From NCBI RefSeq assembly GCF_058153355.1, contig NZ_CM177019.1: a stretch of DNA of 64,000 bases; one strand, written 5' to 3'. A program made the position numbers. Below are positions 58,701 through 61,700 of the stretch, piece after piece. Within the stretch, counting starts at the first letter, position 1. The number at the start of each line of letters is the position of its first letter.

Positions 58701-61700
58701 CGTCGGTCTTTCATCCGGAATCCTCACGCGTGGCCCGAATGGCGTCTGGTGGCCGTCATGGTCTGGCGCAATCTATCTTCCAGGTCGGCGGAAACTTTGG
58801 CAGTTCACTTGGGCCCTTGCTGGCGGCAGTAATTATCGCACCTTATGGCAAAGGTAACGTGGCGTGGTTTGTACTGGCTGCTCTGTTAGCTATCGTGGTG
58901 CTGGCGCAAATCAGCCGTTGGTACTCTGCACAGCACCGAATGAATAAGGGCAAACCCAAAGCAACGATTATCAATCCACTGCCGCGCAACAAAGTGGTAC
59001 TGGCGGTCAGCATTCTGTTAATCCTGATTTTCTCGAAATATTTCTATATGGCGAGCATCAGCAGCTATTACACCTTTTATCTGATGCAAAAATTCGGATT
59101 ATCTATCCAGAATGCCCAGCTTCATCTGTTTGCATTCCTGTTTGCCGTTGCGGCAGGTACGGTGATCGGCGGGCCTGTAGGGGATAAAATTGGACGGAAA
59201 TATGTGATTTGGGGCTCTATCCTCGGCGTTGCGCCGTTTACGCTGATTTTACCCTACGCCACCCTGCACTGGACGGGGGTTTTGACGGTGATTATTGGAT
59301 TTATCCTCGCTTCGGCGTTCTCTGCCATTCTGGTCTACGCTCAGGAGCTACTTCCAGGACGTATCGGTATGGTTTCTGGACTCTTTTTCGGTTTTGCTTT
59401 CGGCATGGGGGGTCTGGGAGCGGCAGTTCTGGGGCTTATCGCCGACCACACCAGCATCGAGTTAGTCTATAAAATCTGTGCTTTCCTGCCACTATTGGGG
59501 ATGTTGACCATATTCCTGCCTGATAACCGGCATAAAGACTGATTTCATTGCAGCCAAAGGCAAACTTTGGCTGCATCGTTTTACAGTCGCCATAAGCCTT
59601 TCCTCTGTTAAACCGCCTTCTGTTTTCCGATCCGTGCTTTTTTTGCCGCTAATTCCATTTTTCTGCAAAATTCAACAATTATTCATAAACATCATCAATG
59701 AAATTGTCATAAACTATTACCTGTAATTTTGGTTTTCCCGGCCAAAAATGGACAATAACCACCAGGAAAAGGAGACGGAATGCATCACGCCACCCCGCTT
59801 ATCACCACCATTGTTGGCGGCCTTGTGCTCGCCTTTATCCTCGGCATGCTGGCCAATAAACTACGCATTTCTCCTCTGGTGGGATACCTGTTAGCAGGTG
59901 TGCTGGCGGGACCATTCACTCCTGGCTTTGTTGCCGATACCAAGCTCGCGCCGGAACTGGCGGAGCTGGGCGTTATTCTGCTGATGTTCGGCGTCGGTTT
60001 GCACTTTTCGCTGAAGGATTTGATGGCGGTAAAGGCCATCGCCATTCCCGGCGCGATCGCCCAGATAGCCGTGGCGACGCTGCTGGGTATGGCGCTCTCC
60101 GCCGTGCTGGGATGGTCGTTAATGACCGGTATCGTGTTCGGTTTATGTCTTTCCACCGCCAGTACCGTGGTGTTACTACGCGCACTTGAAGAACGGCAAT
60201 TAATAGACAGCCAGCGTGGGCAAATCGCCATCGGTTGGTTGATTGTGGAAGACCTGGTCATGGTTCTGACGCTGGTATTGCTGCCCGCAGTAGCAGGAAT
60301 GATGGAACAGGGTGATGTGGGCTTTGCGACGCTGGCCGTTGATATGGGGATCACCATCGGCAAGGTGATCGCATTTATTGCCATTATGATGCTGGTAGGT
60401 CGCCGTCTGGTGCCGTGGATTATGGCACGCAGCGCGGCAACCGGTTCCCGCGAGCTATTTACCCTGTCGGTGCTGACGCTAGCGTTAGGGATTGCTTTTG
60501 GCGCGGTGGAACTGTTTGACGTCTCCTTTGCGCTGGGCGCGTTCTTCGCCGGGATGGTACTGAACGAGTCTGAACTGAGTCACCGTGCTGCCCACGATAC
60601 GCTGCCATTGCGCGACGCGTTTGCGGTGCTGTTTTTTGTCTCCGTCGGAATGCTGTTTGATCCGTTAATTCTGATTCAGCAACCACTGGCGGTGCTAGCG
60701 ACGCTGGCGATTATTCTGTTTGGTAAGTCATTAGCCGCGTTTTTCCTGGTGCGACTGTTTGGTCACTCTCAACGTACGGCATTAACTATCGCCGCCAGCC
60801 TGGCGCAAATTGGTGAGTTCGCTTTTATCCTGGCGGGGCTGGGGATGGCGCTGGATCTGTTGCCGCAGGCCGGACAAAACCTGGTGCTGGCAGGGGCAAT
60901 CCTGTCGATTATGCTTAACCCGGTGCTGTTCGCGCTGCTGGAGAAATATCTGGCGAAGACCGAAACGCTGGAAGAGCAGACGCTGGAAGAAGCTATCGAA
61001 GAGGAGAAGCAGATTCCGGTGGATATCTGCAACCATGCGCTGCTGGTAGGTTATGGTCGTGTGGGCAGCCTGCTGGGGGAGAAGTTGCTCGCCTCTGATA
61101 TTCCTTTAGTGGTGATTGAGACGTCACGTACTCGCGTCGATGAACTGCGCGAGCGCGGGGTCCGCGCAGTATTGGGCAATGCGGCGAACGAAGAAATTAT
61201 GCAACTGGCGCATCTGGAATGTGCAAAATGGCTGATCCTGACGATTCCCAATGGTTATGAAGCGGGCGAGATTGTGGCGTCTGCCCGCGCGAAAAACCCG
61301 GATATTGAGATTATCGCCCGCGCCCATTATGACGACGAGGTAGCATATATTACCGAGCGCGGGGCGAATCAGGTGGTAATGGGCGAGCGTGAAATCGCCC
61401 GTACTATGCTGGAACTGCTGGAAACGCCACCGGCGGGTGAAGTGGTGACGGGGTAAGACATTGATTCCATTGCCGGATGCGATGCTGACGCATCTTATCC
61501 GGCCTACAGGTGCCACCTTCCGAAGGTCGGATAAGGCGTTTATGTCGCATCCGACTGTCATTGCCGGATGCGATGTTGACACATCTTATCCAGCATACAG
61601 GTGCCATCTTTCGTAGGTCGGATAAGGCGTTTATGCCGCATCCGACTGTCATCAGTCCGATAACTTAACGATCCCAGTAAGACTCTTCCAGACTGTCTTC

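What the first reader, a model, noticed from the sequence alone, without database searches (positions are those of the whole stretch)
61470..61660. Tandem duplication of a complete BIME downstream of ybaL
Two nearly identical roughly 95-bp copies in direct tandem, each containing a pair of REP palindromes. This is a local duplication in an intergenic spacer.
Basis: seen in the sequence. Interest (0 to 1): 0.2.

Follow-up and report, generated by a model that had tools for sequence, protein, structure and literature searches.

The report
Two-unit BIME-2 repeat between ybaL and gsk
The tandem repeat is real, but it is an ordinary two-unit array of a well-known E. coli intergenic repeat (REP/BIME-2), present as a rare, old and stable allele of a spacer that varies a lot between strains.

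Summary
Window 61468-61558 and 61559-61649 are two head-to-tail 91-bp copies, 91% identical with no indels. They lie in the 208-bp spacer between the convergent genes ybaL (+) and gsk (-).

Each unit has four parts: a 37-nt z2-type REP in inverted orientation, a 14-nt head-to-head linker, a 35-nt y-type REP, and a 5-nt tail spacer. This is the published BIME-2 architecture, whose units normally occur in tandem and differ in number between strains.

Spacer alleles among 5,426 complete E. coli genomes:
- An unrelated K-12-type BIME: about 4,659 genomes.
- A single z2 REP: about 590.
- One unit: 1.
- Two units: 15, plus one metagenome contig.
- More than two units: none seen.

Six of the 7-9 copy-1/copy-2 differences are shared by all four carrier sequences I read, whose flanks differ by about 2%. 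The doubling is therefore old and stably inherited, not a recent strain-specific event. Two of the six form a compensatory C:G to T:A change in a REP stem.

The copies are closer to each other (91%) than to any other unit in E. coli genomes (at most 87.5%). This supports a local origin.

The likely role is a bidirectional 3'-end hairpin element. That role is inferred, not tested. Interest is low.

The parts
59780..61456 (+). ybaL coding sequence (YbaL family putative K+ efflux transporter). Stop codon TAA at 61454-61456.
   Evidence: 558-aa ORF. Annotated ybaL in the matching RefSeq genome EC42405.
61457..61467 (.). Left flank of the array (GACATTGATTC), between the ybaL stop and the first unit.
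   Evidence: Sequence. Shared with the one-unit and single-REP alleles.
61468..61558 (+). BIME-2 unit 1 (91 bp).
61471..61507 (-). REP1a: 37-nt z2-type REP, read as a REP on the - strand (GTAGGCCGGATAAGATGCGTCAGCATCGCATCCGGCA). GTAG is intact. Its stem starts 15 nt after the ybaL stop codon.
   Evidence: Hairpin -22 kcal/mol.
61508..61521 (.). Head-to-head linker S1 (AGGTGCCACCTTCC, 14 nt).
   Evidence: Differs from S2 at 2 of 14 positions (unit positions 49 and 53).
61522..61556 (+). REP1b: 35-nt y-type REP. Its tetranucleotide is degenerate (GAAG in place of GTAG).
61557..61561 (.). Tail-to-tail spacer GTCAT. It contains the join between units (61558/61559). The join sits in a 3-bp CAT that also follows unit 2.
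61559..61649 (+). BIME-2 unit 2 (91 bp).
61562..61598 (-). REP2a: 37-nt z2-type REP. In the window its tetranucleotide is GTAT; relatives have GTAG. The upper stem carries the compensatory C:G to T:A change relative to REP1a.
61599..61612 (.). Head-to-head linker S2 (AGGTGCCATCTTTC, 14 nt).
61613..61647 (+). REP2b: 35-nt y-type REP with GTAG, T11, the A12A13/G26C27 bulge and G32 all intact.
   Evidence: The determinants are as listed in PMC8266576.
61650..61664 (.). Right flank (CATCAGTCCGATAAC), up to the gsk stop codon.
61665..62969 (-). gsk coding sequence (inosine/guanosine kinase), convergent with ybaL.
   Evidence: 434-aa ORF. Annotated gsk in the matching RefSeq genome.

Best explanation
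This is a canonical BIME-2 element with two tandem units. It holds four REP palindromes in the order z2-inverted, S linker, y, short tail spacer, repeated twice, and it fills the spacer between the convergent genes ybaL and gsk.

Origin. The second unit most likely arose by doubling a pre-existing single z2-S-y unit at this locus. The join falls in a 3-bp CAT microhomology. The doubling is old: it predates the split between the window's lineage and the E. coli genomes that carry the same allele. Since then the array has been inherited stably at exactly two units.

Function (inferred from what is published for REP/BIME, not tested here). When the array is transcribed from either side, it folds into very stable hairpins at the 3' ends of both the ybaL and gsk transcripts. 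These hairpins would block 3'-5' exonucleases and attenuate read-through into the opposing gene. As DNA, the array is a candidate DNA gyrase site, and it is a substrate or relic of the REP-associated transposase TnpA-REP.
For: Anatomy:
- Period 91, two copies, no indels.
- REPs of 37 and 35 nt in alternating orientation. They carry GTAG/CTAC ends, the AA/GC bulge and conserved T11 and G32. These match the y (35 nt) and z2 (37 nt) types described in PMC8266576.
- PMC3333891 defines BIME-2 as z2 plus y with a short linker S, occurring as multiple tandem copies that are well conserved within a locus and variable in number between strains.
- The same REP subtypes and a related S linker occur at the loiP-speB BIME of K-12.

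Local origin:
- The copies are 91% alike. The best unit elsewhere is 84-87.5%.
- Both copies have a 14-nt linker and the same tail spacer.
- CAT lies at both boundaries, and also in the one-unit allele of strain AR_0077.

Age and stability:
- Six copy differences are shared by the window, L001, L009 and L010.
- Flanks differ by 2.2% and the array by 1.9% between the window and L001.
- All 15 carrier genomes and one metagenome contig have exactly two units.

Structure:
- RNA folds of -95.7 and -94.3 kcal/mol on the two strands, z = -5.6 and -5.2.
- Two of the six fixed differences (positions 18 and 23 of the unit) form a compensatory stem pair.
- The spacer has no U-tract terminator and no promoter-like site, so the REPs are the only structured element between the two genes.

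Published function:
- REP325 acts both as a partly Rho-dependent terminator and as an mRNA stabiliser.
- REPs between convergent genes correlate with higher expression of both genes. Nearly 40% of REPs between convergent genes lie within previously identified bidirectional terminators (bioRxiv 10.64898/2026.03.23.713779).
Against: - No expression, 3'-end or gyrase data exist for this allele, so the function is inference by family membership.
- The cited preprint stresses that REP effects depend on context and do not uniformly change half-lives.
- Most E. coli manage with a different BIME or a single REP in this spacer. The second unit is therefore clearly dispensable and may be neutral.
- The margin for a local origin is modest: 91% against 87.5%.
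- The copies differ by 7-9%, about three times the divergence between orthologous arrays. That requires a very old doubling, fast change in REPs, or copies that were already different when joined.
- The single one-unit allele found is no closer to copy 1 than copy 2 is: 8 differences, 7 of them in or next to the linker. It is not the direct ancestor.
- Only two of the four REPs in the window keep the GTAG needed for TnpA-REP recognition.
Confidence: 0.85

Rival explanations
1. A recent, strain-specific tandem duplication produced by replication slippage. It would have no history and no significance beyond this genome.
For: Perfect head-to-tail register, no indels, and a 3-bp CAT microhomology at the boundaries.
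Against: - The copies differ at 8 of 91 positions.
- Six of those differences are shared with three E. coli genomes whose flanks differ from the window by about 2%.
- The same allele is present in 15 complete genomes from cattle, dog, goat, pig, food and humans, and in one metagenome contig.
Confidence: 0.03
2. There was no duplication. Two BIME/REPIN units were inserted independently, side by side, by TnpA-REP-mediated transposition from other loci.
For: - REPs are thought to be mobilised by TnpA-REP, which cleaves and joins BIME DNA in vitro (PMC3333891).
- 9% divergence between the copies is high for a local duplicate.
- Units of the same REP subtypes exist elsewhere, for example at loiP-speB.
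Against: - No unit elsewhere in 5,426 genomes is as close to either copy as the copies are to each other: 84-87.5% with a shorter, 11-nt linker, against 91% with identical 14-nt linker length and tail spacer.
- There is no C|T dinucleotide, the published cleavage-site core, at the join on either strand (and PMC3333891).
Confidence: 0.07
3. Unequal crossing-over between two already diverged one-unit alleles, for example after DNA transfer between lineages. The two copies would never have been identical.
For: - It explains why paralogous divergence (6.6% fixed) exceeds orthologous divergence (about 2%).
- One-unit alleles exist and are diverse in the linker (AR_0077).
- The ybaL 3' end of this haplotype is 7-9% from common E. 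coli alleles, which hints at recombination in the region.
Against: - Only one one-unit allele was found, and it matches neither copy's linker.
- No direct evidence of a recombination breakpoint.
- This is a variant of the local-doubling explanation rather than a true alternative.
Confidence: 0.12
4. The array encodes a naRNA4-like nucleoid-associated small RNA.
For: Rfam RF02564 (naRNA4) matches 61525-61595 on both strands: 57.4 and 42.7 bits, E = 6e-9 and 1e-5.
Against: - The best score is below the family's gathering score of 59.5.
- The naRNA4 model is itself built on a REP pair (REP325), so any tail-to-tail REP pair resembles it.
- A 2026 preprint finds that naRNA4/REP325 does not compact the nucleoid and acts instead as a 3'UTR element.
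Confidence: 0.02

Closest known systems
BIME-2 family of bacterial interspersed mosaic elements in E. coli (Gilson/Bachellier classification, as summarised in Ton-Hoang et al. 2012, PMC3333891)
   Same: Alternating y and z2 REPs in inverse orientation. Short head-to-head linker and short tail spacer. Tandem repetition of the pair. Extragenic position between convergent genes. Unit number differs between strains.
   Different: Nothing essential differs.
- The z2 REPs here are a subtype with a GCCGGAT lower stem and an ATGC upper stem, where the window's other z2 copies have GCCTGAT and ACGCG. The same subtype occurs at loiP-speB in K-12.
- The S linker is 14 nt, against 11 nt at loiP-speB.
- Two of the four REPs have lost GTAG.
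REP325 / naRNA4 locus (yjdM-yjdN) of E. coli K-12
   Same: A multi-REP array in a 3' UTR. There is sequence and structure similarity to the Rfam model (57.4 bits). REP325 is published as a dual terminator and stabiliser.
   Different: The score is below the Rfam gathering threshold. The locus is different. This array has two units between convergent genes; REP325 lies within the yjdMN operon, between yjdM and yjdN.
REPIN-RAYT systems (Bertels and Rainey 2011, PMC3116915)
   Same: Inverted REP doublets as the repeated unit. A single-copy Y1 transposase is presumed to be the mobiliser.
   Different: REPINs are defined as dispersed doublets that spread within a genome. Here the doublet is repeated in tandem in place, and no closer copy exists elsewhere. 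The RAYT gene is not in the window.

Membership tests
REP (y and z2 types of E. coli) | Imperfect palindrome of 35 nt (y) or 37 nt (z2), preceded by GTAG | tested here: met
   The four palindromes are 37, 35, 37 and 35 nt and fold at -14.8 to -22 kcal/mol. GTAG is intact in REP1a and REP2b. It is degenerate in REP1b (GAAG) and REP2a (GTAT; relatives have GTAG). Lengths are as given in PMC8266576.
REP (y and z2 types of E. coli) | Conserved A12A13/G26C27 mismatch bulge and conserved T11 and G32 in the y REP | tested here: met
   Read directly from GTAGGTCGGATAAGGCGTTTATGCCGCATCCGACT against the positions named in PMC8266576.
BIME-2 | [quoted passage not shown] | tested here: met
   Order is z2 (inverted), a 14-nt linker, then y, in both units. 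Definition from PMC3333891. The z2 assignment rests on length and stem-loop architecture; identity to z2 and y references is similar, 32/37 each.
BIME-2 | Occurs as tandem copies that are well conserved within a locus | tested here: met
   Two copies, 91% identical, no indels.
BIME-2 | Number of tandem units at a locus varies between strains | tested here: met
   Single REP in about 590 genomes, one unit in 1, two units in 15, out of 5,426.
BIME-2 | Bound and cleaved by DNA gyrase in vivo | not testable with these tools
   Known only from the literature (Espeli and Boccard 1997, cited).
TnpA-REP substrate | REP with GTAG for binding, and a C|T cleavage site in the iREP or linker | tested here: inconclusive
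   - GTAG is present in two of the four REPs.
- The CC|TAC site is present in REP1a but lost in REP2a of the window (CA|TAC).
- The TGCC|TGAT site is absent because the stem reads TGCCGGAT.
- The unit join has no C|T.
Sources; rules from PMC3333891.
naRNA4 (Rfam RF02564) | Score at or above the family gathering score of 59.5 bits | tested here: not met
   Best match is 57.4 bits at 61525-61595.
Intrinsic (Rho-independent) terminator | G+C-rich hairpin followed by a T/U tract | tested here: not met
   No terminator-like site on either strand of 61200-61900.

The most novel reading that the evidence does not exclude
The ybaL-gsk spacer may be a natural allelic series that captures how a BIME-2 grows in place.

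The series runs from a single z2 REP, to one z2-S-y unit, to two units. Alongside it are an unrelated K-12-type BIME and, in Escherichia sp. E1V33, a hybrid that carries both REP types around a two-gene insert.

The fixed differences between the copies include a compensatory stem pair. That would mean the hairpins are under selection, or are repaired by template switching within the palindrome, and are not simply decaying.

If so, this locus could serve as a defined test bed for two questions. Does unit number tune the expression of convergent genes? Does BIME amplification need TnpA-REP?
Probability: 0.15. Interest if true: 0.3.

Novelty: already known. Interest (0 to 1): 0.1.

Why it matters
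It matters little on its own. The finding correctly spots a member of the most abundant repeat family of E. coli, in its textbook tandem form.

Its modest value is as a marker and a model:
- The two-unit allele tags a rare, divergent Escherichia/E. coli haplotype (15 of 5,426 complete genomes).
- The spacer shows at least four unrelated or stepwise states.
- That makes it a convenient natural system for asking whether REP number at a convergent 3' end changes transcript stability or read-through.

Tried and rejected
- Searching GTDB species representatives for the left-flank sequence ACATTGATTYCATTGCCGGATGCGATG found nothing. The species of the window could not be named this way.
- A degenerate gsk-end pattern found only two Escherichia sp. 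genomes, neither with the two-unit allele.
- The metagenome scan for the unit join found one contig with the same two-unit allele, and no array of three or more units.
- The supplement of PMC3333891, which might list this locus, is not held.
- A search for the paper on REPs close to stop codons (Liang, Rudd and Deutscher 2015) did not retrieve it. The 15-nt spacing between the ybaL stop and REP1a is therefore noted only as a lead from memory.
- naRNA4 membership was rejected because the score is below threshold.
- The promoter and terminator scan found nothing.
- ORFs that overlap the array (51, 52 and 82 aa) were treated as by-products of the palindromes. RefSeq annotates nothing there.
- I tried to derive the single-REP allele from the one-unit allele by one simple deletion between GATAA repeats. 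The lengths do not fit (26 nt against 22 nt), so that history is left open.

Full report
**1. What is in the sequence**

Tandem Repeats Finder reports a single array at 61468-61652 with period 91, 2.0 copies, 91% matches, no indels and score 314. The gap-free repeat finder puts the copies at 61468-61558 and 61559-61649. They differ at 8 of 91 positions.

The array lies in a 208-bp spacer (61457-61664). On one side a 558-aa ORF on the + strand ends at 61456. On the other a 434-aa ORF on the - strand ends at 61665. In the nearest complete genome, RefSeq annotates these as ybaL and gsk. The period is 91 bp, not about 95.

**2. Anatomy of a unit**

Read in the GTAG-first orientation, the four palindromes are:

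| REP | Coordinates, strand | Length | Sequence |
|---|---|---|---|
| REP1a | 61471-61507, - | 37 nt | GTAGGCCGGATAAGATGCGTCAGCATCGCATCCGGCA |
| REP1b | 61522-61556, + | 35 nt | GAAGGTCGGATAAGGCGTTTATGTCGCATCCGACT |
| REP2a | 61562-61598, - | 37 nt | GTATGCTGGATAAGATGTGTCAACATCGCATCCGGCA |
| REP2b | 61613-61647, + | 35 nt | GTAGGTCGGATAAGGCGTTTATGCCGCATCCGACT |

- The lengths, the GTAG tetranucleotide, the AA/GC bulge and the conserved T11 and G32 match the y (35 nt) and z2 (37 nt) REP types described for E. coli (PMC8266576).
- Heads face each other across a 14-nt linker: AGGTGCCACCTTCC in unit 1 and AGGTGCCATCTTTC in unit 2.
- Tails are separated by GTCAT.
- The z2 call rests on length and stem-loop architecture. 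In plain identity the 37-nt REPs are equally close to z2 and y references in the window.

The same two REP subtypes, with a related but shorter linker (GGGTGCCGAAC), occur at the loiP-speB BIME of K-12. Other BIMEs in the window (19814-19897 and 54666-54800) have the same y/z2 alternation with unrelated linkers.

**3. What family this is**

Ton-Hoang et al. (PMC3333891) summarise the classification. [quoted passage not shown] The tandem copies at one locus are well conserved, and their number at a given locus varies between E. coli strains.

Every sequence-level criterion is met here. The 'tandem duplication of a BIME' is the normal architecture of a BIME-2 with two units.

**4.

I searched 5,426 complete E. 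coli genomes with allele-specific queries.

| Spacer state | Genomes |
|---|---|
| K-12-type, 129-132 bp: a different BIME (z2 REP, 12-nt tail linker, y REP, plus a remnant TTGCCGGAT) | 4,659 |
| Single-REP family, 82-83 bp: only REP1a plus a short tail | 602, including the 16 below |
| One-unit, 116 bp: strain AR_0077 | 1 |
| Two-unit, 208 bp | 15 |

- One metagenome contig also has exactly two units. No array with more than two units was seen.
- One genome has IS1397 inserted in the loop of the z2 REP of the K-12-type allele. This fits that element's known preference for REPs (title cited).
- The window has no match of 99% or better in the collection over longer stretches. It is about 96-97% identical to E. 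coli genomes, and its nearest relatives are the two-unit carriers.

**5. Local doubling or independent arrival?**

The best unit anywhere else in these genomes is 84.1% identical to copy 2 and 87.5% to copy 1, over 88 of 91 nt, with a shorter linker. The two local copies are 91% identical without gaps, and they share linker length and tail spacer. This favours a doubling in place, though not by a wide margin.

The unit is bounded by CAT on both sides, in the one-unit allele as well. The join therefore sits in a 3-bp microhomology. That is compatible with slippage or illegitimate recombination. It is not the C|T junction expected from TnpA-REP strand transfer (rules). After this much divergence the junction argument is weak either way.

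**6. Age**

Six of the copy-1/copy-2 differences (unit positions 18, 23, 34, 49, 53, 56) are present in the window and in three E. coli carriers.

- The coding flanks of carrier L001 differ from the window by 20 of 892 nt (2.2%).
- The array in L001 differs from the window at 4 of 208 nt (1.9%).

The doubling therefore predates the split of these lineages, and the array has been stable since. The fixed divergence between paralogous copies (6.6%) is about three times the divergence between orthologous arrays. That points to one of three things: a much older doubling, faster change early on, or a join of two already different one-unit alleles. The only one-unit allele found differs from copy 1 at 8 positions, 7 of them in or next to the linker. 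It is not the direct ancestor.

Positions 18 and 23 together convert a C:G pair of the z2 upper stem into T:A and keep a 5-bp stem. This fits either selection on the hairpin or template switching within the palindrome. I could not tell which.

**7. How it probably works**

Shown here:
- Both strands of the spacer fold far better than shuffled controls: -95.7 and -94.3 kcal/mol, z = -5.6 and -5.2.
- The spacer has no U-tract terminator and no promoter-like site.

Published for the family:
- REPs stabilise upstream mRNA, attenuate transcription, and bind gyrase, IHF and Pol I (introduction of PMC3333891).
- REP325 is a partly Rho-dependent terminator and an mRNA stabiliser.
- About 30% of convergent gene pairs carry a REP. 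These pairs show higher expression of both genes. Nearly 40% of the REPs between convergent genes lie within previously identified bidirectional terminators.

Inferred: this array is a bidirectional 3'-end element for ybaL and gsk, and the second unit adds redundancy or strength. Because most strains carry other spacer states, the extra unit is dispensable and may be neutral.

A lead from memory, not verified here: REP stems within about 15 nt of a stop codon have been reported to stall terminating ribosomes. REP1a starts 15 nt after the ybaL stop.

**8. Rivals**

- A recent strain-specific duplication is excluded by the shared differences.
- Independent insertion of two units is disfavoured by the lack of any closer unit elsewhere.
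- Unequal crossing-over between diverged one-unit alleles remains possible, and it would explain the excess divergence between the copies.
- A naRNA4-like RNA gene is rejected. The best Rfam score (57.4 bits) is below the gathering score (59.5), and that model is itself a REP pair.

**9. Verdict**

The kind of element and its copy-number polymorphism are already known. Interest is low.

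Noticed in passing
L007 857-960 and L016 489-2053 (E. coli 2020N21-110): An IS1397-family IS3 element is inserted in the ybaL-gsk spacer, within the loop of the z2 REP of the K-12-type allele (GTAGGCCTGATAAGACGCGCC | ATGAACTGCACC...). 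This fits that element's published preference for REPs.
   Followed up: partly
L014 10471-11461 (Escherichia sp. E1V33): The spacer is a hybrid. The ybaL side carries the K-12-type z2 REP and tail linker. The gsk side carries the single-REP allele (CATTGCCGGATGCGATGCTGACGC...). Between them lie about 830 bp with two small ORFs on the - strand: 153 aa with a weak, sub-threshold DUF7336 hit, and 111 aa with no Pfam hit. The two main E. coli spacer types could be alternative deletion products of such a state. The right boundary of the insert coincides with the left boundary of the 91-bp unit (just 5' of CATTGCC).
   Followed up: partly
window 19814-19897, 54666-54800, 11905-11939: Other REP elements in the window:
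- a z2-y tail-to-tail pair;
- a y-z2-y BIME whose last REP has lost its CTAC end;
- a single degenerate y REP.
Their linkers are unrelated to those of the ybaL-gsk array.
   Followed up: partly
window 1-64000: The window has no close match among 5,426 complete E. coli genomes. Core genes (qmcA, fetAB, ybbJ, cueR) are about 96.4% identical to typical E. coli, and the best genome is 97.2%. The last 457 nt of ybaL differ by 7-9% from common alleles. The source is a divergent Escherichia/E. coli lineage whose nearest relatives are the two-unit carriers.
   Followed up: partly
window about 20000-45000: There is a large adhesin / type I secretion region (siiEA-like BapA-related adhesin, HlyD, permease/ATPase, YadA-like protein). 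Only 953 of 5,426 genomes cover at least 80% of 20000-32000, so the region is a variable island.
   Followed up: no
window 61522-61525 and 61595-61598: Two of the four REPs have lost the GTAG tetranucleotide that TnpA-REP needs. REP1b reads GAAG (AAAG in EC42405). REP2a reads GTAT in the window only; all relatives keep GTAG there.
   Followed up: yes
window 61454-61472: The stem of the first REP begins 15 nt after the ybaL stop codon. On the other side, REP2b ends 18 nt before the gsk stop. From memory, REPs this close to a stop codon have been reported to affect translation termination. I could not retrieve that paper here.
   Followed up: no
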